Of a DNA stretch of 64,000 nt, positions 41,740 to 63,873 are shown piece after piece. The translations under genes and the position numbers were made by a program. The notes under the pieces were generated by a model. The model saw nothing but the letters and a program-made list of their open reading frames with translations. It did not search any database and had not been told where the DNA came from. Origin of the DNA: Candidatus Omnitrophota bacterium (lineage in GTDB: Bacteria; Omnitrophota; Omnitrophia; Omnitrophales; Aquincolibacteriaceae); the NCBI GenBank assembly GCA_016930235.1, contig JAFGHI010000042.1:2550-66549 (forward strand), in the 5' to 3' direction. How positions within the stretch are numbered: position 1 is the stretch's first letter; each line of letters starts with the position of its first letter.

Positions 41740-44700
41740 ATGAAAATTGACAATCTAACGAATCGAGCGACAAGTATCTTAACGATACTTGTTTTTTTAT
41801 TTTCGCAGGTGATAGTTTTTCCCACGCAGTCGATCGCTGCTGATCCCGTTCAGCAAATCCAGGATCGACAGGCGGAAGTTTCTTTGGAAGTCAAAGAAAC
41901 AGATCATTCCGATATTAATCCTGAAGAAAGATATCTCGATAGGAGTCTGGCCACTTTCTTTGAGCCTGTTGCCATTACAAAAGTAGCGGCGGTACGAACG
42001 CCGGCGTCACCTAAACCCCACGCATCGCCGGTACCTAATGCGTCTCCGAGCCCAACGAGTTATGCGTCACCAAGCCCAAGAAGTTCTTCGTCCCCGTCGC
42101 CGGTTCAAGTGCAAAGCGTTTTTAGCGGAGTCCTCGTAAAAGTTCCTGATGATCAGCCGAGTTTTCTGATGCGGTCGGTCTACCGTTTGCAAATTGACGC
42201 GAACCGTTCGATTTTGGTGGATGGCGCCGATGAAGTGGGTCAAAAATTACTGCCTCTCTATGAAGGCCAAGAAGTTGAATTACGCGGTGAATTTTTCGAA
42301 CTGGAAGGGATGCAGATTTTAAAGGTCACCCATATTAACGGGGAACCTGTCGAAGATTTACTCAATGAACTGCCTGATCCCACGAAGTATCCCACGGAAT
42401 CTGAGATGGAGGCGATACAGGGGCTTGGATCGGATATCGTTAAATTTGACAAAGCGACGGTTCGTGAGGACGGGATGAGGGAATATCAATTTTCTTCGTC
42501 ACCCAATGCGGCCGGAAGATTCCTTCAAATCGAAGTGACTTATGATCCTTGCGGCGGGATGCTTAAATGCCTGGCGCCGATCAGGATCAAGACCTTTCAA
42601 ATTGTTTTTGATCCGGGGCCGGTTTCGAGCGGAGAAATAATCCAGCTGCCGCCTCACGCGTTTCTTGATGTTTCTAAAGTTGAAGGTGTTATTCATCTTC
42701 CCGCGGGCGCGAAGTTCACGCTGGGGTTCCCCAGTGACAACTGGCTCCTATTTGATCTGGAGACGCAGATTACCGAACAGCCCGTCCGCGAAGTCGTTAT
42801 CCAGGATTTAGTCCAGACTTTTGGATTGGATGAATCCGGGATTCGATCGATGCTGGAACGGGGGGATATGAGTATCACGGTGGATCTAGAAAATCAAAAA
42901 GTTAAAGTCCATATGCCCGGTCATTTTAATTATACGCCCGTGGCGGCGGTGCCTTTCGGCGGGGTTTACCAGCCTAATCTTTTAGGTGATGAATACATCA
43001 GCTCTGAGATTACCTATCAATATGAAACGACGACGTCTGAGGATAAGATTCATCTTGTTGCGGCGGAGTTTCGACATAGCGGCAAGGTCTTCCGGTTAAG
43101 TTATGCGACCCCAGCGACCTCTCCGGCATCCGCAGTTCTCAATAACAAATTGTATTCAGTGACCGTTTCCGAAGAGGTTGAGACGCCATGTCTTATGGCG
43201 CCGTGTCCCGTTCAGGAGAAGTTGATTAAGCGGGTGCGATATATTTACTATGCGGATTCTGTGAACCCTGCTATGGCCGGGATCCAATATCTAGGTGAGA
43301 GCAGTGTGGCGTACCGGACGGTGACTTTTGTGGAACGCGAGACGGGTTTATTTGTGGATACCGTTGCGGATTTTGATTCCCAGGATAATTTGATCGCTGC
43401 GAATAAATTTTATTATACGGAGAATGCGGTTTGTGAGGCGATTTCGCCCTGCCACATCGAAAAGATTGAGCGCACGAAACCCCAAGGTGAGAGCAAAACC
43501 CAACGTGTGCTTGTTTCCGTCATTTCGGATTTTGAATATATCTTGTTGATAGGCGGGAAGTTTCCGATGGTGGCGACGATCACGCGCGCGGACGGTGTTT
43601 CTAAAGAGGTGAGATTCGGAAGCGCGGTTGAAGGAATTTTGGAGGAGGCCCTCGAATTCGAAAGCGAATATGATCCAGAACGCGCTGCATTAGAAGAATT
43701 TATTGCGGAATGGAGCCGGTTAAAAGCTGCCTACATGGATTACTTGCTGGAGCAGTTAGAGCCGATTCGGGATATGGGAGCGGCTATGACGGAGACAGAA
43801 CTCGAAGTTTTGCTTGAGGCATCGGATTTAAATGAAGCCCAAAGGGAGCGGTTGAGGCGGTTACATTTTGCTTTGACTTATATGCTTCATACGGTGGATT
43901 GGGTGTTTGATCAGTCATTAACACTTGTAGAACTGCCGGATTGGTATGCTGAATTTGCGGAGGCGGAAGGTTTTTCTTCCGTCGGGCTATATGTTTTCGG
44001 GGATATCGATACCTCCGGCATGTCCTTGGAGGAATTGCGTGAGACGGTCAATGAGATTAGGGATTATACGGCAGGCGAAGATTTGGAGTCATTCTTTGCC
44101 GGAATAGCAGCCGGGGTACCGGAATCCGCTGCGAGTATTATAGCGAGAACGAATCAGATCAACGCCGAGCTGGAAGCGCTGCGGGCGAATGAAAGAATTA
44201 GCCTTCTTAAAGAAAGGGCGCAGGCGCTCTTGGCGAGTAAGACGGAGGAAGTTAATAATTACATTCAGACGCTTCAAGAGCGTATTGATGTTCTCGAGGG
44301 GCTATTAAGCGAGGCGGATGAAGCCAATCTTCAGATGGAAGAATTGTATGCGCTTTTGATGGAGGAACGTGAGCGGCTTGTCAATTTATCAATGCAATAT
44401 CCGGAGGTTGATTTGAGTGATTTGGGCGGGAGCAATGAGATCATTCTCGAGGGGCTGAACGGATCGGGTGTCCAGGACCGGGATTATTACACGGCGTGGA
44501 CGATTTGGCGCGAGAACGTAGCTCGGCTTATCAGCCGTTATGAAGAGGGTATCGCAGTAAATCAAGAGGGCCTGGCTGAATTGGAAGCGCTTGCCAGTCA
44601 AATTTCGGCGTCTAATGATCCATCCGAAATCAAGCGCCTCTTGGATGAGATGATGGACAAGGCCGAAGACTTGCCGGTACCGATGGTTTTTCATCCCATC

Positions 44701-47700
44701 AATGTTTCCGAACCGGACGCCCAGATTGTCCTTAACCGCATGAACGGCATGCTGAACGCGATGCGGCGTAATTATCAAATTGCCAATCAAAGGATTGCCC
44801 AGGCCGACAGGCAGGCGCTCATCAGCTATCTTTCAGGAGTTGTCTCTGAACAGGCGGAGTTTATCCGTGAGGCCTTGGAAAAATATAAGGACGTCCAGGG
44901 GATTGAGATTGCGCTGAGTGCGGATGATTTGACGGCACTTATCGAGAAACTTGGTCTATCGGAAGAAGAGGCCGCGCGGCTTATGAATTTGTATAAGTAT
45001 TTTCTTGTGATGCTGGGTGTTCGTGCGGATGCGGTCCCATCGCCCTCATCTTCATCGAGCCCGAGTCCGGCTGCATATGTTTCAGCCAGCCCGCAGCCCT
45101 ATGCTTCGCCATCACCTTCTCCAGCCTCGTGGTCAATCAATAACCTCGTGACCGACGGAATCTTCCTGCCTCCGAATGCGAACCTTAATTCGAGGACCAT
45201 TGCCGCTCTGAAGGATTTTATTGCTTCCGAAGAGCTTTTAGGGTTTCTCCTGATGAAGAGGATCAATATACCGCCGGTCCAATCGTTATCTTTGGACGTT
45301 TTAAAGGACGCAGTTGAAAAAGTTAAGGAACTTATAGGCGATGACCCTGCCCAGTTTTTCGAGGAGGCCATGGAAGCTGTGGATCAGTACGTCGAAGGCG
45401 CCAAAGCCGATCTTGCCAAGATCAATACGGAATTTGAATCGCTTGAGGTTGATCCTGAACAGCAACAGTGGGAAACCAAGTGGACGGAGATTGAGGAGGC
45501 ACGTGTCGATCATATGACCGAGGTTTCCGAAGCCTTTGATGTTTATTTAAGGGAGTATCTTGATTCGATTGACGGCATGATTGATTCAGTACAAGGAATC
45601 TTGATAAATCTTCAAGACCAGGACTACACCGGTTTGGGTTTGGAGGATCTTGCCTTGTTTTTGAAATCGTACCAAAGCGCAGTGTCTTCTTTAGGTGTGG
45701 ATTTAAACTCTTTTCTCAGAAATGAAAGCATTCCAAACCTTCAGGAATTTTTCGAAGGTTTGAGGGAACAGTTCCTCAGTGATATGGATGCGGCTTTAGG
45801 CGAGGTTGATCAATTCATTAGCATATTCAGGGAAAGAGATCCAAGTCCCGAGGTCCTCGAAAGGATCGAGAGTCTTGAGAAGGTTAAGAAGTGGCTGCTC
45901 GAATTAAAGCCGGTTTATGTGAAGATGCTCGATGATTCCATCCAAATGGGGGTTGTTTTCGAAAATCAGCTGGGGAACCTGAATGGTATTTTGGGCCGCA
46001 TCGAAGAAGGGCGCCAGCAGTTGCTCCAAGAATTTGATGCTATTGATGAGCAATATGAAAGAGCGGTTCAAAATTTGGCGATGGAGCATTGCGGCCAAAC
46101 AGAGGACCCGGCTTCGGATGCGACGTGTGTATTCGAAAACCAGTATGCCTATTCTCAATGGAGGTATGGGATTTCGCCTGTGCGGTATGAGGAATGGAAA
46201 ACTTGCTGGAAGGATACCTGGGAAAGTGGCGTGACGAATTCCTCGGATATTGCAGCTGTATGTGGAGAATACGCAAAAGAGGAGGCGTGGGAAGCTGTCT
46301 ATGATGGGCCAGCAGGTTCAACGAGCGGATCGCTCGAACCGGGGCATTACCCTGCAGCAACCGATAGTTTTTTTGAAGTGCCTTATGCAGTCGCTTTGCG
46401 TGATTTGGAGATTGAGCGTGATCTTCAAAAGAAAAAAGCGAAAGAGGTTTTTTATGCGCTTGCCGAAGTTGAGATCATGAAATTAAAAGGGATCCGCGCT
46501 GCTGTTATAGGACAGATGGATGATTTATTGTCCATGCGTGTTGAGGTCATGAATGAATACCACCGGATTTGGCAGGAGGCAAGATCTCTGTCCGGCGGCA
46601 TTTTTAATTATCGCAATGAAGATGGTTTGGATTTTTATTCAAGATCAATAAGGGAAGTTTTAGGTGAAGGCACATGGTATTACAAAGTTTTTGATGACGA
46701 TGCAGTGTCGGGTAAAGTCAGAGGTGCGCTTAAGAACTCTTTGGATGCAGTTAAACGAGCAGCTGAAGAGGCCGGAGGAACTTTCTTTTCGGAATTGAGT
46801 CATGTCCAATTTGGCTTAAGGGATGCTTTAAAGAAGAAGGTTGAGATTGAATACCAATGGGCAGTGCGTGACGCACGCGAAGAGTATTATGGATCTTTCA
46901 AGGATGTTATGGCGATTGCTAAACCCATTGTTGAGGACTGGTACAACTATTGCCATGTGCCTACATCTTCAGATTGGCAGCAGCCCGCAGAATGTGGGGC
47001 CAATATGTTAGCGTCTTCTCAATATGGAATTGAACCCTCAAGAGAAGCATGGTTAAACCACCTTGTGTCGGCGAGTCGATTTCAGATGGTGCCAGTCGAA
47101 TATCAGGAGATATGCGACACGAATTTGAATGGTGAAGAATATTGTTACGAGACTGTAGCACGGTATGAAGCCATGGACCTCCAATCTCAGAATGAGGCCA
47201 TCTTAGATGAAGTTAGATGGTGGCATTCTACGGGATCCCCAGATGGTTATGAGGAATACAAAAATCTGTATGAAAAGTGGTATGCCGGTGTCGCTTCTTC
47301 TGATCTTTTTTATCGGCAACAAGTGGCAGAAGCTCTGTTGAAATTAGGGGAGTTTGATGAATTTGAAGCGAATATTTCTGAATTTTGCAGTCAAATTGGC
47401 GGTGGATATCAAGTCCTCGCATTTACGAATTGCGCGGATTTTGGCTACGGAGACGATTTTGTCGGCAGTCTTCAAGAAGAACGTGATCAAGCCTTGGCTC
47501 TAATTGATGAACAGTTTAGCGATCTTGGTATAGCGGTCTCAATTAATCCCAGTGACGCTCCTTTCATTATATTGGGCCCTAATCATTATATTGGTCATGC
47601 CGTGCTTGGCGGTGAGGAACTCGAGCGTCGTTGGGAAGAACTTTTTGGCGCTATGGATGAGGCATGGGATTCATTTGAAAAATCAAAGCAAGCTTCTGAT

Positions 47701-47736
47701 GAGAAATTTTATCAAATGTACGAAGGGCTGATCTAA
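41740..47736 (+). CDS. Giant (1998 aa) secreted protein with N-terminal signal peptide, Pro/Ser-rich linkers, long coiled-coil middle region and Cys/Trp-rich C-terminal domain; function unknown
   Basis: Uninterrupted 5997-nt ORF. Signal peptide MKIDNLTNRATSILTILVFLFSQVIVFPTQSIA|ADP. Linkers PASPKPHASPVPNASPSPTSYASPSP and PSPSSSSSPSPAAYVSASPQPYASPSPSP. Heptad-rich segments run from about 43.6 to 46.1 kb. Confidence 0.75.
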   Translation: MKIDNLTNRATSILTILVFLFSQVIVFPTQSIAADPVQQIQDRQAEVSLEVKETDHSDINPEERYLDRSLATFFEPVAITKVAAVRTPASPKPHASPVPNASPSPTSYASPSPRSSSSPSPVQVQSVFSGVLVKVPDDQPSFLMRSVYRLQIDANRSILVDGADEVGQKLLPLYEGQEVELRGEFFELEGMQILKVTHINGEPVEDLLNELPDPTKYPTESEMEAIQGLGSDIVKFDKATVREDGMREYQFSSSPNAAGRFLQIEVTYDPCGGMLKCLAPIRIKTFQIVFDPGPVSSGEIIQLPPHAFLDVSKVEGVIHLPAGAKFTLGFPSDNWLLFDLETQITEQPVREVVIQDLVQTFGLDESGIRSMLERGDMSITVDLENQKVKVHMPGHFNYTPVAAVPFGGVYQPNLLGDEYISSEITYQYETTTSEDKIHLVAAEFRHSGKVFRLSYATPATSPASAVLNNKLYSVTVSEEVETPCLMAPCPVQEKLIKRVRYIYYADSVNPAMAGIQYLGESSVAYRTVTFVERETGLFVDTVADFDSQDNLIAANKFYYTENAVCEAISPCHIEKIERTKPQGESKTQRVLVSVISDFEYILLIGGKFPMVATITRADGVSKEVRFGSAVEGILEEALEFESEYDPERAALEEFIAEWSRLKAAYMDYLLEQLEPIRDMGAAMTETELEVLLEASDLNEAQRERLRRLHFALTYMLHTVDWVFDQSLTLVELPDWYAEFAEAEGFSSVGLYVFGDIDTSGMSLEELRETVNEIRDYTAGEDLESFFAGIAAGVPESAASIIARTNQINAELEALRANERISLLKERAQALLASKTEEVNNYIQTLQERIDVLEGLLSEADEANLQMEELYALLMEERERLVNLSMQYPEVDLSDLGGSNEIILEGLNGSGVQDRDYYTAWTIWRENVARLISRYEEGIAVNQEGLAELEALASQISASNDPSEIKRLLDEMMDKAEDLPVPMVFHPINVSEPDAQIVLNRMNGMLNAMRRNYQIANQRIAQADRQALISYLSGVVSEQAEFIREALEKYKDVQGIEIALSADDLTALIEKLGLSEEEAARLMNLYKYFLVMLGVRADAVPSPSSSSSPSPAAYVSASPQPYASPSPSPASWSINNLVTDGIFLPPNANLNSRTIAALKDFIASEELLGFLLMKRINIPPVQSLSLDVLKDAVEKVKELIGDDPAQFFEEAMEAVDQYVEGAKADLAKINTEFESLEVDPEQQQWETKWTEIEEARVDHMTEVSEAFDVYLREYLDSIDGMIDSVQGILINLQDQDYTGLGLEDLALFLKSYQSAVSSLGVDLNSFLRNESIPNLQEFFEGLREQFLSDMDAALGEVDQFISIFRERDPSPEVLERIESLEKVKKWLLELKPVYVKMLDDSIQMGVVFENQLGNLNGILGRIEEGRQQLLQEFDAIDEQYERAVQNLAMEHCGQTEDPASDATCVFENQYAYSQWRYGISPVRYEEWKTCWKDTWESGVTNSSDIAAVCGEYAKEEAWEAVYDGPAGSTSGSLEPGHYPAATDSFFEVPYAVALRDLEIERDLQKKKAKEVFYALAEVEIMKLKGIRAAVIGQMDDLLSMRVEVMNEYHRIWQEARSLSGGIFNYRNEDGLDFYSRSIREVLGEGTWYYKVFDDDAVSGKVRGALKNSLDAVKRAAEEAGGTFFSELSHVQFGLRDALKKKVEIEYQWAVRDAREEYYGSFKDVMAIAKPIVEDWYNYCHVPTSSDWQQPAECGANMLASSQYGIEPSREAWLNHLVSASRFQMVPVEYQEICDTNLNGEEYCYETVARYEAMDLQSQNEAILDEVRWWHSTGSPDGYEEYKNLYEKWYAGVASSDLFYRQQVAEALLKLGEFDEFEANISEFCSQIGGGYQVLAFTNCADFGYGDDFVGSLQEERDQALALIDEQFSDLGIAVSINPSDAPFIILGPNHYIGHAVLGGEELERRWEELFGAMDEAWDSFEKSKQASDEKFYQMYEGLI

Positions 47737-47827
47737 AGCGAACGATAACGGAGCTATTAAGGCAGCGTTATTCGAATTAATTGAATTAACAATTTTGAAT
47801 AATTATTTTACAGATTCCAAACCCCAA

Positions 47828-48650
47828 CCCCCGGAATCGGTGTGAATTTGAGTTATAACCGATTCCGGGGTTCCCTCCTTTATTTAGACTACAGACCGCA
47901 GACTAACACCGAATCCCAATGATTCGGTGCGACTTCACTGATATTGATATATCAGTACCGCTCGTGGAAACCTTGATGGTTTCCTACGATCTTGCGGCAG
48001 AACCTGGACGGTTCTGTCCGAGTCGAGACCAGAGAACAGAAGCTAGATTCTGGATGCTGGATACTAGATAGAAGTGATGAATTTATAGTGCGTTTTATAA
48101 ATCCAACTTCGGGAATCTTACGCGGAGTCCTCACATTCTATATTTCCAAACGTTTGGAGATATGCACCCGTTCTGAATTGTCCCCACGTGGGGACAATTT
48201 ACGCAGACAAATTTGAGGTGATGCAAATCGCTTCGAATTTATTCGGTGCCGAATAAATCTGATAATTCAAATTGGTCCGGCGCCGGACCAATTGGCGTAA
48301 ATTGAATTTTCCCCGCGTGGGGAAAATTGGTGAGAACCGAGTTTTCCCACCGGTGGGAAAACTCACCAGGCTTGAATTCTGCCGACGTCGGCAGAATTTA
48401 ACGATTTTAAGTTTTCCGAACGTTCGGAAAACTCAGTGGTTATAACTAGCCGAAGCTGGATACTGGATGCTAGATGTTCGCCCCCTCACCCTGCCCTCTC
48501 CCCACTGGGGAGAGGGTTGGGGTGAGGGGTTGTTGTTTCAGTTTACCCGCCTGCGTGGCAGGCGGGGATGAGGGGGAAATATTCTTATAACACCCTCAAC
48601 CTAGCCCCTGCCCGACTGCATGGCAGGCGGGCTCTCCCTTTCAGGGAGAG
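47828..48650. repeat. Array of 18 or more distinct palindromic hairpin units (REP/BIME-like cluster) in a coding-free 1.2-kb region
   Basis: Perfect 24-bp palindromes include aattgtccccacgtggggacaatt (48177-48200), aattggtccggcgccggaccaatt (48270-48293), aattctgccgacgtcggcagaatt (48375-48398) and agttttccgaacgttcggaaaact (48410-48433). A 26-bp palindrome is gagttttcccaccggtgggaaaactc (48339-48364). Further hairpins lie at 47828-47870, 47907-47929, 47937-47956, 47966-47984, 47998-48016, 48140-48163, 48237-48258 and 48305-48328. GC-rich hairpins lie at 48482-48529, 48546-48566, 48611-48631 and 48632-48650. Confidence 0.8.
48043..48070. repeat. Direct repeat ctggatRctggatRctagat, copy 1, flanking the hairpin array
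   Basis: ctagattctggatgctggatactagata is repeated as ctagccgaagctggatactggatgctagatg at 48447-48477 and as a degenerate inverted copy at 48733-48775. Confidence 0.55.
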
Positions 48651-48913
48651 GGAAATACAACGGTTAATTATCAACGCCACTCGTTAATGGTGCATTATGT
48701 TTTTGACTTGCTGCCTGGAGCCTGCAGCTTTGATCTAGCTTCCAGCCTCTAGCCTCAGCTTTTATCCAGCATCTGATTTACGTGATCACTAATGCTATCT
48801 ATTGCTATATAGAGAATTTATTTTATAGCAGGTATTGAAAAATGATCGAACGGCGGGTATGGTTTAAGAAGATAGTTTAGGGAACGTTTTGATTCACTAA
48901 TTAGTTCATATGA

Positions 48914-49267
48914 ATGGAGATAGGACTTATGAAAAGAGATAGATTAGTCAGTTGGCTTCATTGTGTGGGTTTTGTTTTGTTTTTTGCCATTGCCCAATGG
49001 TTTTTTGTCCTGCCGGTGATCTCGGCAGTCAATCCCGCGGAAAGTGTCTACGCGACGAACCGTCTTTCGAAGGATAATACCGCCGGTATGAAAGACAACA
49101 TTTCGGTGCCTGTCGTGCAGCCGGTCGAGAAGCTTGAGATCGGCGGGTTCATTGCCGGTGAGGGAATGGGTTTTGGTGCAGTCTCCTATAAGGCGCAGGA
49201 TCTTGTCGGCGGGCATTTGGCCTCGAGCCGGAATCCCGAAGAAATCCTGGAACTTGCCGGAACATAA
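48914..49267 (+). CDS. Hypothetical small membrane-anchored protein
   Basis: One N-terminal TM helix and no recognisable family. The start is uncertain, with an alternative ATG at 48929. Confidence 0.3.
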   Translation: MEIGLMKRDRLVSWLHCVGFVLFFAIAQWFFVLPVISAVNPAESVYATNRLSKDNTAGMKDNISVPVVQPVEKLEIGGFIAGEGMGFGAVSYKAQDLVGGHLASSRNPEEILELAGT

Positions 49268-49319
49268 AAGGGATAAACCGTTCCCGTGTTTTGTGTTGAT
49301 CTAATTCTTCCATTAGGTT

Positions 49320-49580
49320 TTGCCGATAATCCATAACCGGATGAAAACTCTTATTTTCAACACAATCGGTTTTTTTTCGGCCCTGAGCTTGATCATGGTC
49401 CTGGTTTATTTCGGGCCGGACTTAATCCAAGGAGATCTCACTTCGATGAAGGATTTCCTCGAAAAATACCGGGGCATCGAACCCTTCGTCATATTTATTG
49501 TCCCTGTCGTTATCATTGTGGGGAGTGCCTGGATCTGGAAGATGGCCGTCCATTTAACCCGTAAGAACCCTTCATCCTAA
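49320..49580 (+). CDS. Hypothetical small two-TM membrane protein
   Basis: 86-aa ORF with two hydrophobic helices and no recognisable family. Confidence 0.3.
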   Translation: MPIIHNRMKTLIFNTIGFFSALSLIMVLVYFGPDLIQGDLTSMKDFLEKYRGIEPFVIFIVPVVIIVGSAWIWKMAVHLTRKNPSS

Positions 49581-49592
49581 AAGGAGCTAACC

Positions 49593-51455
49593 ATGGACTT
49601 ACTCAATGACAAGAACGCAAGCAAGGGGAAACTCAAGGCCTTGGAATTGGCCGAGGATTCACGCGAGGCAGAATGGAAGCTGCCGAGTTTTGCGGCGGAG
49701 CTTTTCCAAGGCCAGACGCGCTGGGAACTTATCTTACCTTTTCCGTCTCAGAGTGATGAGGATAAAAAGGAAGGCGATTTATTCCTGGCAAAACTCGAAA
49801 AGGTCCTCAAAAAAACTATCGATCCGAACGAAGTTGATCGAAGCGGGGATGTTCCTAAGGAGGCGCTTCAGGCCCTGGCGGAGATCGGGTGTTTTGCGAT
49901 TAAGATCCCGAAGGAATACGGCGGGCTGGGTTTATCGCAGGTCAATTACAACCGCGCGATCCATCTTACGGCGAGTCATTGCTCTTCGACGGCCGTGTAC
50001 CTTTCGGCGCATCAATCGATCGGGGTGCCGCAGCCTCTCATCAATTTTGGGACGGAGGAACAAAAGAAAAAATATTTTCCGCAATTTGCGAAGGGGAAGA
50101 TCTCGGCCTTTGCGTTGACGGAACCGGATGTGGGCAGTGATCCGGCCAAGATGAAGACGACGGCGGTGCCGATGGAGGGCGGGAAATATTATCTCTTAAA
50201 CGGTGAAAAGCTTTGGTGTACGAACGGGACGGTGGCGGAAATTATCGCGGTGATGGCTCAAACGCCCCCCAAGATTGTGCGGGGTAAAGAGCGGCAGCAA
50301 ATCACGGCCTTTATTGTTGAAAAGAGTATGCCGGGCGTTGAGGTGGCTCACCGCTGTACTTTTATGGGCCTTAAAGGGATCTCGAACGCGCTCATCCGGT
50401 TTAAAGACGTGAAGGTCCCGGCGGAGAATATCATTATCGGAGAAGGCAAGGGGCTGAAGCTGGCCCTTTCGACCTTGAATATCGGACGTTTGACGATGCC
50501 GGCGGCGGTCACAGCCGGTGCGAAATGGTGCATTCGTGTGATGCGCGATTGGGCGAATAACCGTGTGCAGTGGGGCGCGCCGGTGGGAAAGCACGAAGCG
50601 GTGGCCGCTAAGATTGCGGGGATGTCGTCCACGGTCTTTGCAATGGATGCGATTGCGAATATGGCGGCGGCGATGGTGGACCAGAAGAAAACCGATATTC
50701 GTTTGGAAGCGGCGCTCGCGAAACTCTTTTGTACGGAGGCCAGCTGGCGTATTGTCGACGGGGCGATGCAGGTCCGCGGCGGACGGGGCTATGAGACCGT
50801 GGAGTCTTTAAAAGGACGCGGCGATCAACCTTATGCGGTCGAACGCCTCATGCGCGATATGCGGATCAACACGATCATTGAAGGGACGAGCCAGATCATG
50901 AGGCTATTTATTGCGCGTGAGGCCATGGATATTCATGTCCGCCATATTATGCCGATCCTGGCGAAGCGCACAAAGTTTCTGGACCGGATCAAACTTGCGT
51001 TTCAGTCCTTCTTCTTTTATGCGTTTTGGTACCCTCAGCAATTCTTGTTTTTGACTTCGATGCCAAAAGGCGTGAAGATCCCGAAGCGGCTCGGGGGACA
51101 TATGAAATATGTTTCGAAGACCGCACATCGCTTGGCACGTAATCTCTTTCATGCCATGATGCTTTATCAACAAGGGCTTGAGAAGAAGCAGATGCTGATG
51201 ACGAGGCTTGTCAATATCGGGACCGATCTTTTTGCGATTGCCGTGAGTTGTTCGAAGGCCATCAAGATGGTGACGGAGAATCCGGGAGACAAAGGGCCCA
51301 TCGATGTCGCAGACCTTTTTTGCCGGCAGGCAAAGGGACGGATTGAAGGGCAATTCCGGGGTCTTTTCCATAACTTTGACGGATTTGCTTACAAGGTAGC
51401 GCAGGATACCTTGAAGGACAAACACCTTTGGCTCGAATCGGACCTTGTTTCGTAA
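49593..51455 (+). CDS. Acyl-CoA dehydrogenase family protein with C-terminal extension (FadE-like)
   Basis: ACAD N-terminal, middle and C-terminal domains (EIGCFAIKIPKEYGGLGL, FALTEPDVGSDP, catalytic region QVRGGRGYE), plus a roughly 200-aa C-terminal extension. Confidence 0.8.
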   Translation: MDLLNDKNASKGKLKALELAEDSREAEWKLPSFAAELFQGQTRWELILPFPSQSDEDKKEGDLFLAKLEKVLKKTIDPNEVDRSGDVPKEALQALAEIGCFAIKIPKEYGGLGLSQVNYNRAIHLTASHCSSTAVYLSAHQSIGVPQPLINFGTEEQKKKYFPQFAKGKISAFALTEPDVGSDPAKMKTTAVPMEGGKYYLLNGEKLWCTNGTVAEIIAVMAQTPPKIVRGKERQQITAFIVEKSMPGVEVAHRCTFMGLKGISNALIRFKDVKVPAENIIIGEGKGLKLALSTLNIGRLTMPAAVTAGAKWCIRVMRDWANNRVQWGAPVGKHEAVAAKIAGMSSTVFAMDAIANMAAAMVDQKKTDIRLEAALAKLFCTEASWRIVDGAMQVRGGRGYETVESLKGRGDQPYAVERLMRDMRINTIIEGTSQIMRLFIAREAMDIHVRHIMPILAKRTKFLDRIKLAFQSFFFYAFWYPQQFLFLTSMPKGVKIPKRLGGHMKYVSKTAHRLARNLFHAMMLYQQGLEKKQMLMTRLVNIGTDLFAIAVSCSKAIKMVTENPGDKGPIDVADLFCRQAKGRIEGQFRGLFHNFDGFAYKVAQDTLKDKHLWLESDLVS

Positions 51456-51480
51456 GCACCGACGCCTCCGGCGTTTGACC

Positions 51481-51565
51481 GCTAGCGCCCACCGCGTAGG
51501 TGGCCTTTTCAATCATTCCTAACGTTAGGTTTGTCGGAAAAGGCCACCTACGCGGTGGGCGCTAG
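51481..51565. repeat. Nested-palindrome intergenic repeat element, copy 2 (perfect 29-bp arms)
   Basis: gctagcgcccaccgcgtaggtggcctttt (51481-51509) pairs perfectly with aaaaggccacctacgcggtgggcgctagc (51537-51565). The loop contains cctaacgttagg. It lies immediately 3' of the acyl-CoA dehydrogenase gene. Confidence 0.8.
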
Positions 51566-63027: not shown

Positions 63028-63873
63028 TTAAGTCAGAGAGGCGGAAATCTTTTTTATCTTTGATTTTCTGGGTTTCAAGGTCTCTTCTTCTTCGCCTGAC
63101 GCACCATCCAAAATGCCGCGCTCGGAAGCTTCAATAAAAGAAATCAAGTGTTTGACTTCGGCACATTTCAAGTTTTTTTTCATTTCTTCGACGGCTTGCG
63201 TCACATTAAGTCCTGAACGGTAGAGCAGTTTGTAAGCTTGCTTGATTTCGTCACGGATAGGGGGCGGAAAACCTGCCCGTCTTAGACCCACGACATTCAT
63301 CCCAAGAACGACACCGGGCCGCCCGCCGCAGGTCAAGAAAGGAGGAATGTCTTTATTGCAGGCTGAAAGCGCACTGACCATTGAAAGCCGGCCTATGCGT
63401 GTGAATTGGTGAAATCCGGTCATGCCTGAAAGGAAGGCACTGTCCTCGACCATGCAGTGTCCGGTCAGAGAAGCTTGATTGACCATGATGATATTGTTGC
63501 CAAGCGTACAGTTGTGGGCAACATGGCAATAAGCCATTAAGAAATTCGAATCCCCTAAAACGGTGGATGTTCCGGGTTTGGTTCCCCGATGGATCGTGAC
63601 AAATTCCCGTATTTTATTGTGATGGCCGATCTTGGTATAAGTGGGTTCTCCCTTATAGGCCGTATCTTGGGGCGTATGGCCGATCACGGTTCTCATGTGG
63701 ATCTCATTGTAGTTGCCGATTTCCGTGCCGACGCAAATATAAGCCCCGGCCATAATTGTGTTATGGGAGCCGATCTTGACCCCGTCTTCGATGATGACAT
63801 AAGGGCCAATTTTATTGTTGACGCCCAGCTCGGCATTTTTTCCGATAATTGCTGTAGGATGAATCTCTGACAT
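63028..63873 (-). CDS. lpxA: Acyl-[ACP]--UDP-N-acetylglucosamine O-acyltransferase
   Basis: MSEIHPTAIIG start, left-handed beta-helix hexapeptide repeats and a C-terminal helical domain. Confidence 0.85.
   Translation of the reverse strand: MSEIHPTAIIGKNAELGVNNKIGPYVIIEDGVKIGSHNTIMAGAYICVGTEIGNYNEIHMRTVIGHTPQDTAYKGEPTYTKIGHHNKIREFVTIHRGTKPGTSTVLGDSNFLMAYCHVAHNCTLGNNIIMVNQASLTGHCMVEDSAFLSGMTGFHQFTRIGRLSMVSALSACNKDIPPFLTCGGRPGVVLGMNVVGLRRAGFPPPIRDEIKQAYKLLYRSGLNVTQAVEEMKKNLKCAEVKHLISFIEASERGILDGASGEEEETLKPRKSKIKKISASLT

What the first reader, a model, noticed from the sequence alone, without database searches (positions are those of the whole stretch)
48140..48433. Periodic run of seven 24-26 bp palindromes built on one template but all different, showing compensatory-change-like covariation
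The units are atatttccaaacgtttggagatat, aattgtccccacgtggggacaatt, atttattcggtgccgaataaat, aattggtccggcgccggaccaatt, aattttccccgcgtggggaaaatt, gagttttcccaccggtgggaaaactc, aattctgccgacgtcggcagaatt and agttttccgaacgttcggaaaact. Each has an AT-rich outer stem (aatt/agtt), a 4-5 bp GC inner stem and a 4-nt centre (ACGT/GCGT/CCGG/GCGC/GTGC). The last five are spaced by 10-11 bp, giving a period near 35 bp. The sequences differ at many positions, yet nearly every unit remains a perfect palindrome. This implies selection on hairpin structure or a dyad protein site, not sequence identity. It is not a CRISPR array, since units are non-identical and spacers are too short. It most resembles REP/BIME clusters, but with unusually perfect and diverse units.
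Basis: seen in the sequence. Interest (0 to 1): 0.8.

Follow-up and report, generated by a model that had tools for sequence, protein, structure and literature searches.

The report
Tandem array of diverse perfect DNA palindromes
A non-coding gap in the genome of an uncultured Omnitrophota bacterium holds nine evenly spaced, all-different but almost perfectly self-complementary 24-bp units. They belong to a sparse, undescribed family of hairpin-forming intergenic repeats that resembles the REP elements of better-known bacteria but is not demonstrably one of them.

Summary
Seven perfect palindromes and one with a single G.T lie at 48140-48433, mostly 35 bp apart. I add a ninth, degenerate unit at 48210-48239. 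The whole 64-kb window has 9 palindromes with arms of 10 or more, against 0.47 in shuffles.

The array sits in a 1177-bp hairpin-rich gap after a 1998-aa gene of an Omnitrophota MAG. The same template, YG|AATT-N16-AATT|GR, stepped by 20 or 35 bp, occurs in six other Omnitrophota contigs. It also occurs in single Verrucomicrobiota, Alphaproteobacteria and Saprospirales genomes, often beside toxin-antitoxin or defence genes.

Over 36 units, 95.6% of positions pair and 10 of 12 pairs show double changes. Symmetry extends even to the two central bases, which cannot pair. Flanks are asymmetric, and every imperfect pair in the window is G.T on the + strand.

Best reading: a REP/BIME-like hairpin repeat family, amplified here in 35-bp steps. 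It is not CRISPR, not an intrinsic terminator and not attC. REP membership is unproven: there is no GTAG, copy number looks low and no RAYT was seen. Function is inferred, not shown.

The parts
48140..48163 (+). Unit 0: ATATTTCCAAACGTTTGGAGATAT. Near-perfect palindrome with one T.G at positions 5/20 and ATAT instead of AATT ends.
48176..48199 (+). Unit 1: AATTGTCCCCACGTGGGGACAATT. Perfect 24-bp palindrome.
48210..48239 (+). Degenerate 30-nt unit, AATT-TGAGGTGAT-GCAA-ATCGCTTCG-AATT. Three G.T pairs and a GNRA-type loop on the + strand. It folds only on the + strand, and its 3' AATT overlaps the first bases of unit 2.
48237..48258 (+). Unit 2: ATTTATTCGGTGCCGAATAAAT. 22-bp palindrome with a TG centre.
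48270..48293 (+). Unit 3: AATTGGTCCGGCGCCGGACCAATT. Perfect palindrome. One mismatch from a unit in the related contig L004 (18156), which is not significant by column shuffles (P about 0.2).
48305..48328 (+). Unit 4: AATTTTCCCCGCGTGGGGAAAATT. Arms of 10 and a GCGT centre (G.T).
48339..48364 (+). Unit 5: GAGTTTTCCCACCGGTGGGAAAACTC. Perfect 26-bp palindrome with AGTT..AACT ends.
48375..48398 (+). Unit 6: AATTCTGCCGACGTCGGCAGAATT. Perfect palindrome.
48410..48433 (+). Unit 7: AGTTTTCCGAACGTTCGGAAAACT. Perfect palindrome.
48043..48069 (+). Heptad repeats (CTRGATN) x4 on the left of the array.
48455..48476 (+). Heptad repeats (GCTGGAT-type, period 7) on the right of the array. These are a direct repeat of the left block, so the array lies between two heptad blocks.
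47737..48913 (.). The 1177-bp hairpin-rich intergenic region that holds the array, between the 1998-aa ORF (41740-47736, +) and a 117-aa ORF (48914-49267, +).
47828..47885 (+). 13-bp GC-rich stem (cccccggaatcggt..accgattccgggg) followed by ttccctcctttattt. This is a terminator-like structure between the giant gene and the array.
   Evidence: my reading of the sequence; the scanner does not accept its 16-nt loop
48483..48650 (.). A second set of unrelated G/C-rich hairpins. CCCCTCACCC..GGGGTGAGGGG lies at about 48483-48529. Two copies of CCCG[C/A]CTGC-NNN-GCAGGCGGG lie at 48546-48566 and 48611-48631. CTCTCCCTTTCAGGGAGAG lies at 48632-48650.

Best explanation
The feature is a genuine non-coding tandem array of nine oriented, hairpin-forming palindromic units.

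It is a local amplification of a sparse, lineage-restricted family of extragenic palindromic repeats. The family unit is YG|AATT - 16-nt palindrome - AATT|GR. Units are stepped by 20 bp when neighbours share an AATT, or by 35 bp with an 11-nt linker.

It works like REP/BIME elements. Each unit forms a stem-loop when the + strand is single-stranded. That state could be the lagging-strand template DNA, the sense RNA, or both.

Shown:
- the palindromes, their spacing and their orientation;
- covariation across 36 units from ten loci;
- + strand-only wobble pairs;
- absence of coding, CRISPR, terminator and attC signatures.

Inferred:
- The array grew by tandem duplication in 35-bp steps, long enough ago for the linkers to randomise.
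- The two arms stay complementary through selection on the + strand hairpin. Copying of one arm from the other (quasi-palindrome template switching) probably also contributes. Template switching would also explain why symmetry runs through the centre, which cannot pair.
- The likely role is structural punctuation between transcription units. This could mean hairpins that stall 3' exonucleases or read-through, or that recruit structure-specific proteins, as described for REP/BIME.
For: - Reality and statistics.
- Not coding: the array is intergenic and carries only short overlapping ORFs.
- Organism: an Omnitrophota MAG.
- Same template elsewhere: L004 has 4 units at 3 intergenic sites, including a 35-bp pair. 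All 5 Omnitrophota hits of the genome scan carry it, as do L034, L043 and L052.
- Conservation: four orthologous loci keep a 3-unit module whose AATT boundaries and linker are invariant, while the cores change symmetrically.
- Covariation over 36 units: 95.6% paired, 10 of 12 pairs with double changes, score 0.713 against 0.173 in shuffles and 0.12 or less with slid partners.
- Stepwise compensation: two otherwise identical copies of about 48 bp in L004 differ only by G..C versus C..G at positions 5/20. A third unit carries the G.G intermediate.
- Orientation: -1 is G in 27 of 36 units, +1 is G in 20 of 36, and the (G,G) flank pair occurs in 16.
- Strand bias: all 5 non-Watson-Crick stem positions in the window are G.T on the + strand. 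Unit 1b folds only on +. The + strand folds at -143.3 kcal/mol against -125.3 for the - strand. The + strand is the leading, gene-sense strand, with GC skew +0.14.
- Published REP behaviour: classes differ by compensatory stem changes, several classes occur per genome, and evenly spaced tandem arrays exist. IHF, gyrase and Pol I are reported to interact with REPs/BIMEs (PMC3686654, PMC3116915).
- Template switching is a documented way to make and keep hairpins perfect (PMC7202029, PMC8794818).
Against: - No GT[AG]G tetranucleotide is present.
- Copy number is low. There is one cluster in 64 kb. Four further Omnitrophota loci (about 87 kb) have none, and the covariance model finds no further units in the window or in the six other ACAD loci among the about 300 kb searched.
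- No Y1/RAYT gene appears in any held locus. Whole genomes could not be searched.
- Spacing stays fixed at 35 bp although linkers are only 27-32% identical. This suggests a constraint on phasing, which fits bound proteins better than selfish repeats.
- The central dinucleotide is self-complementary in 29 of 36 units (CG 21, TA 8). Hairpin selection cannot explain that.
- A terminator-like hairpin at 47828-47885 may end the giant gene's transcript before the array, which weakens a 3'-UTR role.
- Unit orientation is antisense to the flanking genes in L043. It disagrees with GC skew in L019, where orientation was assigned from the linker only.
Confidence: 0.5

Rival explanations
1. A dedicated structured RNA. 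The array is transcribed from the + strand as a multi-hairpin element, either a 3' UTR or a stand-alone non-coding RNA. Its stems are the functional unit, for example a barrier to 3'-5' exonucleases or a protein sponge.
For: - All imperfect stem positions in the window are G.U-compatible on the + strand only, and unit 1b has a GCAA (GNRA) loop.
- The + strand folds 18 kcal/mol better than the - strand.
- Units lie in gene-sense orientation in the window, L004, the L056 group and L052.
Against: - No Rfam family matches.
- No promoter-like or terminator-like sites exceed chance.
- A terminator-like hairpin lies upstream of the array.
- Loops are mostly self-complementary tetranucleotides (24 of 36), not typical stable RNA loops.
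- Orientation is antisense to the neighbouring genes in L043.
- Symmetry of the central dinucleotide has no meaning at RNA level.
Confidence: 0.2
2. A phased array of duplex-DNA binding sites for a symmetric (dimeric) protein. The protein would read the AATT boundaries and the C8/G17 and Y12-R13 positions. The 35-bp register would allow cooperative or helical assembly, as at a centromere, nucleoid-organising or gyrase-type site.
For: - Spacing is strictly kept although linker sequence is random.
- AATT, C8:G17 and a central Y-R step are conserved.
- Symmetry runs through the dyad centre.
- BIMEs are reported to interact with IHF, gyrase and Pol I (PMC3686654).
Against: - A dimer does not require the uncontacted positions of the two half-sites to match, yet all twelve positions covary.
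- Flanks are asymmetric, with G on both sides.
- Unit 1b is not a duplex palindrome but is a + strand hairpin.
- No candidate binding protein is encoded next to the array. Neighbouring ORFs have no family match.
Confidence: 0.12
3. Recombination or insertion sites that border accessory gene cassettes, like integron attC or Xer/pdif modules. The window array would be a stack of empty sites.
For: - In L004, single or paired units follow each of three consecutive small toxin-antitoxin/defence operons.
- A toxin cassette (AbiEii-like where present, zeta toxin, small ORF) is present in L036, L056 and L069 but absent in L063, exactly at the edge of the 3-unit module.
- In L052 the module lies about 90 bp upstream of a split tyrosine recombinase gene.
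Against: - No integrase or transposase lies near the window array, nor in L004.
- There is no GTTRRRY core, and only two RYYYAAC matches that do not coincide with units.
- At 24 bp the units are far shorter than attC sites.
- The arms are too variable to be binding arms for one recombinase.
- The module persists where the cassette is absent.
Confidence: 0.08
4. A chance cluster or an assembly artefact, such as fold-back chimeras.
For: No independent assembly covers the array itself. The Logan contig stops in a hairpin downstream.
Against: - Shuffles give 0.47 palindromes against 9 observed.
- Eight different palindromes at a fixed register cannot come from one fold-back event.
- The same template is present in MAGs from unrelated projects.
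Confidence: 0.01

Closest known systems
REP / BIME / REPIN elements of Proteobacteria (RAYT-associated repetitive extragenic palindromes)
   Same: - Short extragenic palindromes of 20-26 nt with a conserved boundary tetranucleotide and variable stems that change by compensatory substitutions.
- Several sequence classes per genome.
- They occur singly, in pairs or in evenly spaced tandem arrays.
- They are oriented, and they cluster with other repeat families in the same intergenic spots (PMC3686654, PMC3116915).
   Different: - The boundary is AATT (YG|AATT), present on both sides, not a 5' GT[AG]G.
- Units are perfect dyads through the centre, whereas the published REP loops I saw, such as CTTG or CCATG, are not self-complementary.
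- All units in an array have the same orientation, rather than forming inverted doublets.
- Every unit in the array is different, whereas published REP clusters are described as nearly identical repeats.
- Apparent copy number is low.
- No RAYT has been identified.
Small dispersed repeats (SDR) of Nostoc and related cyanobacteria (Elhai et al. 2008, recalled from memory; mentioned in PMC3116915)
   Same: - Elements of 21-27 nt whose families share a predicted hairpin rather than a sequence.
- That hairpin is supported by compensatory changes.
- They are often embedded in tandem heptameric repeats. The window array also lies between two heptad-repeat blocks.
   Different: - The phylum and the sequence are different.
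- SDRs are high-copy and nest within themselves.
- I could not read the original paper here, so this comparison is a lead, not a test.
CRISPR arrays
   Same: Regular alternation of a partly palindromic element and a short variable segment.
   Different: - The 'repeats' are all different, and Tandem Repeats Finder detects no unit.
- The 'spacers' are only 10-12 nt.
- No cas gene is among the window neighbours that were annotated.
Intrinsic (Rho-independent) terminators
   Same: GC-rich stem-loops located after genes.
   Different: - The polarity is reversed, with the T-run 5' and the A-run 3' of the GC core, and there is no U-tail.
- Relatives use canonical terminators such as AAAAGGGGCCaGGCCCCTTTT (L002) and AAAGAGGCCCGATTTGGCCTCTTTTTTT (L160).

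Membership tests
REP/BIME (RAYT-associated) | Extragenic imperfect palindrome of about 20-40 nt able to form a stem-loop | tested here: met
   The units are intergenic, 22-30 nt long, with stems of 9-13 pairs.
REP/BIME (RAYT-associated) | Conserved 5' tetranucleotide GT[AG]G next to the palindrome | tested here: not met
   The 5' flank is YG followed by AATT, and no GTAG or GTGG is present. The REP class list in PMC3686654 was used for comparison.
REP/BIME (RAYT-associated) | Tens to hundreds of dispersed copies per genome | tested here: inconclusive
   Only 64 kb of the source genome is held, and it contains one cluster. Among unbiased ACAD loci of eight Omnitrophota (about 217 kb), two carry units. 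Whole genomes could not be scanned.
REP/BIME (RAYT-associated) | A RAYT (Y1/HUH transposase, PF01797) gene flanked by cognate units | not testable with these tools
   No PF01797 appears in the precomputed Pfam of the loci. tblastn with recalled RayT and IS200 sequences gave no hit (a weak test). The genome is not available.
REPIN | [quoted passage not shown] | tested here: not met
   All units of the array share one orientation by their asymmetric flanks, and the linkers are 10-12 nt.
CRISPR array | Near-identical direct repeats of 23-50 nt separated by unique spacers of similar length | tested here: not met
   No repeat unit is detected by TRF. Inner arms are 57% identical and spacers are 10-12 nt.
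Intrinsic terminator | GC-rich stem-loop directly followed by a U-tract on the transcribed strand | tested here: not met
   The scan gives 2 weak sites against 3.1 expected. The units carry A-runs, not T-runs, on their 3' side.
Integron attC | R'' RYYYAAC and R' GTTRRRY cores bracketing a 55-140 nt imperfect hairpin, with an integron integrase nearby | tested here: not met
   There is no GTTRRRY and only two RYYYAAC matches that do not coincide with units. Units are 24 bp. None of the nearest neighbour ORFs scanned (30.6-52.8 kb) hits an integrase family; the rest of the window was not scanned.
Described RNA families (Rfam 15) | Match at or above a family's gathering score | tested here: not met
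   In the window there are only sub-threshold microRNA and TD-2 matches. No match falls on the modules in ten related loci.

The most novel reading that the evidence does not exclude
The units could be a previously undescribed class of oriented, AATT-bounded dyad elements. In this reading their symmetry is actively regenerated at the DNA level, with one arm copied from the other through the dyad centre. Their fixed 20/35-bp register would reflect a dedicated protein or mobilisation machinery.

They would mark the borders of accessory (toxin-antitoxin or defence) cassettes in Omnitrophota and co-occurring phyla. That would make them a new kind of structure-defined, sequence-free genomic punctuation or insertion site, rather than decayed REP-like repeats.
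Probability: 0.2. Interest if true: 0.7.

Novelty: new variant of a known kind. Interest (0 to 1): 0.45.

Why it matters
Extragenic palindromic repeats have been studied almost only in Proteobacteria and cyanobacteria. This gives a first description of such a family in Omnitrophota, an uncultured phylum.

The family has unusually clean properties: perfect dyads, all units different, a fixed register, and orientation readable from the flanks. It is therefore a compact natural test case for how stems stay paired while their sequences drift. The competing explanations are selection on hairpins and template-switch copying.

The link to cassette borders may also help to delimit accessory islands in metagenome-assembled genomes. 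If the family proves to be ordinary REP-like DNA, the practical value is mainly as an annotation class and as an explanation for assembly breaks.

Tried and rejected
- **CRISPR, intrinsic terminator, attC and Rfam families.** All were tested and not met.
- **Origin or terminus of replication.** Rejected. GC skew is +0.07 to +0.19 throughout with no switch, there is no DnaA-box-like site at 47.0-49.6 kb, and all genes lie on one strand.
- **A limited vocabulary of specific palindromes shared across phyla (horizontal transfer of particular units).** Rejected. Cross-locus arm matches (13 pairs with at least 6 of 8 identical) are no more frequent than in column shuffles (mean 23.7). The single identical arm, window unit 3 against L004, has P about 0.2.
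- **Phage or plasmid origin.** Two pattern scans of viral contigs returned only (AATTT)n microsatellites, ordinary tandem repeats or non-palindromic chance matches. blastn of the array against plasmids and phages gave no match.
- **Similar long arrays in metagenomes.** The 3-unit pattern returned 12 loci, all with near-identical tandem repeats. Only L141 is palindromic, with a 33-bp period and five near-identical units. Arrays of three or more different units are therefore rare.
- **Conservation at the orthologous site.** The nearest ACAD homologues are only about 70% identical, and their upstream gaps are short and carry no such array.
- **A wasted look-up.** P0001 returned only the same 2.9-kb Logan contig.
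- **Y1 transposase search.** tblastn with recalled RayT and IS200 sequences found nothing.
- **Neighbouring small ORFs and the 1998-aa ORF.** None has a Pfam or NCBIfam match.
Full report
**1. Observation**

An exact palindrome scan of the whole window found 9 sites with arms of at least 10 and a loop of at most 4. Seven of them lie between 48176 and 48433. Thirty dinucleotide-preserving shuffles gave a mean of 0.47. Five units are palindromic with no loop at all.

In the seven 24-mers, 82 of 84 arm positions are Watson-Crick and the other two are G.T.

Centres are spaced 36, 60, 34, 35, 35, 35 and 35 bp. The 60-bp gap holds a ninth, degenerate unit at 48210-48239: AATT-TGAGGTGAT-GCAA-ATCGCTTCG-AATT. 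It forms a 13-pair hairpin with three G.T pairs on the + strand and does not fold on the - strand. Its last AATT overlaps the first bases of unit 2.

Tandem Repeats Finder sees no repeat here. Linkers are only 27-32% identical to one another and inner arms 57%.

**2. Setting**

The array lies in an 1177-bp gap (47737-48913). Upstream is a 1998-aa ORF with no Pfam or NCBIfam match. Downstream are a 117-aa ORF and then an acyl-CoA dehydrogenase and a NifU-like gene.

All large ORFs but one (63028-63873) lie on the + strand. GC skew is positive throughout (+0.14 overall), so this is neither an origin nor a terminus, and the + strand is the leading, gene-sense strand.

The neighbours are housekeeping genes: HypD, an AIR-synthase-family protein, cytochrome bd and a Na/H exchanger. 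Among those that were annotated there is no transposase, integrase or cas gene.

The dehydrogenase is identical to a protein of a Candidatus Omnitrophica MAG. Its next relatives are about 70% identical.

The gap is packed with other hairpins on both strands, with fold z-scores from -5 to -7. These include:
- a terminator-like stem with a T-rich tail at 47828-47885, upstream of the array;
- a separate set of G/C-rich hairpins at 48483-48650;
- heptad repeats (CTRGATN) directly on both sides of the array.

None of these families recurs elsewhere in the 64 kb.

An independent Logan assembly matches 48638-51503 exactly but starts inside a hairpin, so it does not cover the array.

**3. Related sequences**

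A related Omnitrophota contig (L004, which equals L003) carries the same template at three intergenic sites. These sites lie between small same-strand operons encoding HEPN_AbiU2, DUF5674, PhdYeFM/ParE and DUF6290. One site holds a pair of units 35 bp apart.

A two-unit pattern scan of 185,579 species genomes returned 69 loci. Most hits are not palindromic and so are chance matches. All five Omnitrophota hits are true palindrome pairs. So are single Saprospirales, Verrucomicrobiota and Alphaproteobacteria loci. A Salinivirgaceae hit (L050) also holds two near-identical AATT-bounded palindromes, but they lie inside a long predicted ORF, so I set it aside.

Units there are either 35 bp apart or abut and share one AATT, giving a 20-bp step.

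L036, L056, L063 and L069 are orthologous loci of four close species. The gene order is ketosynthase, ACP, cyclase, [toxin cassette], module, SRPBCC, MFS, SDR. Their three-unit module keeps the AATT boundaries and the linker GGCCGGGGCTG, while the palindrome cores change symmetrically.

The family is sparse:
- Four further Omnitrophota dehydrogenase loci (about 87 kb) have no unit.
- A covariance model built from 36 units finds no units outside the known clusters in about 300 kb. It finds none at all in the rest of the window or in the six other ACAD loci, and the only units outside the training set are the L050 pair found by the genome scan.
- Three-unit arrays of different palindromes were not found in the JGI metagenome collection. 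Only ordinary tandem repeats came back, among them L141 with five near-identical AATT-bounded palindromes at 33 bp.
- Nothing was found in viral contigs, plasmids or phages.

**4. Anatomy of the family**

I aligned 36 units with 6-nt flanks. Thirty were oriented by the sense of the flanking genes. Six, from L019 and L052, were oriented by the G-rich linker.

Results:
- AATT is nearly invariant on both sides.
- C8:G17 is present in 31 of 36 units.
- 95.6% of the 432 pair cells are standard pairs.
- 10 of 12 pairs show changes on both sides.
- The covariation score is 0.713, against 0.173 for shuffled partners (0 of 500 shuffles reach it) and 0.12 or less for slid partners.

Two results go beyond a simple hairpin.

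First, symmetry runs through the centre. The central tetranucleotide is self-complementary in 24 of 36 units, with seven different tetranucleotides, where chance gives 1 in 16. The central dinucleotide, whose two bases are adjacent and cannot pair with each other, is CG in 21, TA in 8, CA in 3, TG in 2, GG in 1 and GT in 1. It is never GC or AT.

In the orthologous modules, 11 of 12 central columns vary against 9 of 36 arm columns. Even so, 7 of 12 centres are self-complementary (my count).

Series such as GCGC, GCAC, GTAC and ACGT, ACAT, ATAT suggest paired C-to-T transitions at a central CpG. The rarity of the half-changed states suggests that the two changes are not independent. The numbers are small and some units are related by descent.

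Second, the units are oriented. The base before AATT is G in 27 of 36 units and the one before that is T or C in 34. The base after the unit is G in 20 and the next is G or A in 31. A symmetric site would show G..C, but the flank pair is G..G in 16.

**5. Strand**

In the window, every non-Watson-Crick stem position is G.T on the + strand. There is one in unit 0, three in unit 1b and one in unit 4. If transitions fall on either arm at random, this has probability about 0.03.

The + strand of the array folds to -143.3 kcal/mol and the - strand to -125.3.

In other loci the bias is weaker. By my reading there are three events compatible with the sense strand, two with the antisense strand and three transversions.

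The + strand is both the sense strand and the lagging-strand template, so RNA and single-stranded DNA cannot be separated here. Unit orientation agrees with GC skew in five of six informative loci and with gene sense in five of six. The exceptions differ: L019 for skew and L043 for gene sense.

**6. How arms stay matched**

Two copies of about 48 bp in L004 are otherwise identical. They differ only by G..C versus C..G at paired positions 5 and 20. A third unit there shows the G.G intermediate.

This shows stepwise change followed by restoration of pairing. It fits selection on a hairpin, copying of one arm from the other, or both.

Quasi-palindrome template switching is a documented mutational process that makes imperfect inverted repeats perfect (PMC7202029). 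It has been proposed to create and maintain hairpins with apparent compensatory changes in a single event (PMC8794818).

It is the only mechanism I can name that also symmetrises the centre, which cannot pair. This step is inference.

**7. What it is not**

- **Not CRISPR.** No repeat unit is detected, the spacers are 10-12 nt, and no cas gene is among the annotated neighbours.
- **Not an intrinsic terminator.** The T-run is 5' and the A-run is 3' of the GC core, and the scan gives no excess of sites. Relatives use canonical terminators.
- **Not attC.** The cores are absent.
- **Not a described RNA family**.
- **Not a set of specific palindromes spread between phyla.** Shared arms are no commoner than column composition predicts.

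**8. Comparison with known families**

The closest known kind is REP/BIME. Published REP classes share a boundary tetranucleotide and differ by compensatory stem changes. Several classes coexist in one genome. Evenly spaced tandem REP arrays exist, and compensatory changes are described as common. IHF, gyrase and DNA polymerase I are reported to interact with REPs or BIMEs (PMC3686654, PMC3116915).

The present family works like that but fails or cannot be tested on the defining features. There is no GT[AG]G, there are no inverted doublets, copy number is apparently low, and no RAYT is seen in the limited sequence held.

I therefore file it as a new variant of the extragenic-palindrome kind, not as a REP member.

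**9. Context elsewhere and the cassette idea**

Outside the window, the units often adjoin accessory genes:
- VapBC in L043;
- AbiEii-like and zeta-toxin genes in the L056 group;
- an nSTAND1-LRR NTPase in L034;
- a split tyrosine recombinase in L052.

A toxin cassette is present in three of the four orthologous loci and absent from L063, with one junction at the module edge.

This keeps alive a reading in which the units mark insertion or recombination sites. Against it, no recombinase accompanies the window array or L004, and the arms are too variable for one recombinase to bind.

**10. Verdict**

The finding is real and unusual in its detail. It is best explained as a tandem amplification of an oriented, hairpin-forming extragenic palindromic repeat of an Omnitrophota lineage (confidence about 0.5).

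The rivals are a dedicated RNA element, a phased duplex protein-binding array, and cassette-border sites. Function is not shown.

The fixed register, the diversity of the units and the symmetry through the dyad centre remain incompletely explained. They are the parts worth following up.

Noticed in passing
window 41740-47736 (+); L002 1-9834; L003/L004 1-2498; L159 1-4615: There is a 1998-aa ORF with no Pfam or NCBIfam match directly upstream of the gap. Relatives carry giant ORFs of 14,332, 3,271 and 3,767 aa in the same neighbourhood upstream of the acyl-CoA dehydrogenase gene.
   Followed up: partly
window 48043-48069, 48455-48476 (+) and about 48725-48775 (- strand sense): Three blocks of heptad repeats (CTRGATN / GCTGGAT) are present. 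Two of them, as direct repeats, bracket the palindrome array. This recalls the cyanobacterial small dispersed repeats that sit inside heptamer arrays (recalled from memory).
   Followed up: partly
window 48483-48650: A second, unrelated set of G/C-rich hairpins lies here. It includes two direct copies of CCCG[C/A]CTGC-NNN-GCAGGCGGG (48546, 48611) and a long CCCCTCACCC..GGGGTGAGGGG stem. None recurs elsewhere in the window.
   Followed up: partly
L001 (= window 48638-51503): An independent Logan assembly of run SRR13394437 is identical to the window. It begins exactly in the loop of the hairpin CTCTCCCTTTCAGGGAGAG, so this hairpin-rich gap breaks short-read assemblies.
   Followed up: yes
L002 9944-9965 and 21510-21533; L004 9946-9969: A 22-24-bp palindrome, GAAGGATCTC-NNNN-GAGATCCTTC, lies 35-55 bp upstream of the acyl-CoA dehydrogenase start in two relatives, and once more in L002. 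It may be an operator. It is absent from the window (0 hits with up to 3 mismatches).
   Followed up: partly
L056 6199-7501, L069 3502-4290, L036 3757-4551 versus L063 5204-5257: A toxin cassette shows presence/absence polymorphism between orthologous loci. It comprises a zeta toxin and a 66-78-aa ORF in L036, L056 and L069, and an AbiEii-like ORF was identified only in L056. One junction lies at the edge of the palindrome module and the other in the centre of another hairpin (CAGTGGCAATTATTTAATTGCCACTG).
   Followed up: partly
L052 1703-2343 (-) and 2435-2512: In an Alphaproteobacteria MAG, a three-unit AATT module lies about 90 bp upstream of a tyrosine recombinase gene that is split into two ORFs (both match Phage_integrase).
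   Followed up: partly
L141 10566-10720: Five near-identical AATT-bounded 24-bp palindromes (GAATTGCACTTTTGAAAGTGCAATT) are spaced at a 33-bp period, between a gene whose product I did not identify and the start of another ORF. The design is the same as in the window, but the units are young and nearly identical.
   Followed up: partly
L005 9923-9949, 16346-16382; L006 3361-3387; L004 18066-18078: Another Omnitrophota hairpin repeat family (GGTGCCAGGCACC-type) recurs in intergenic gaps. In L004 it sits next to the AATT units.
   Followed up: no
L034 5369-5479: All three units of the Saprospirales locus have the core AGACGTCT or AGACGTTT. They lie just upstream of an nSTAND1-LRR NTPase gene.
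   Followed up: no
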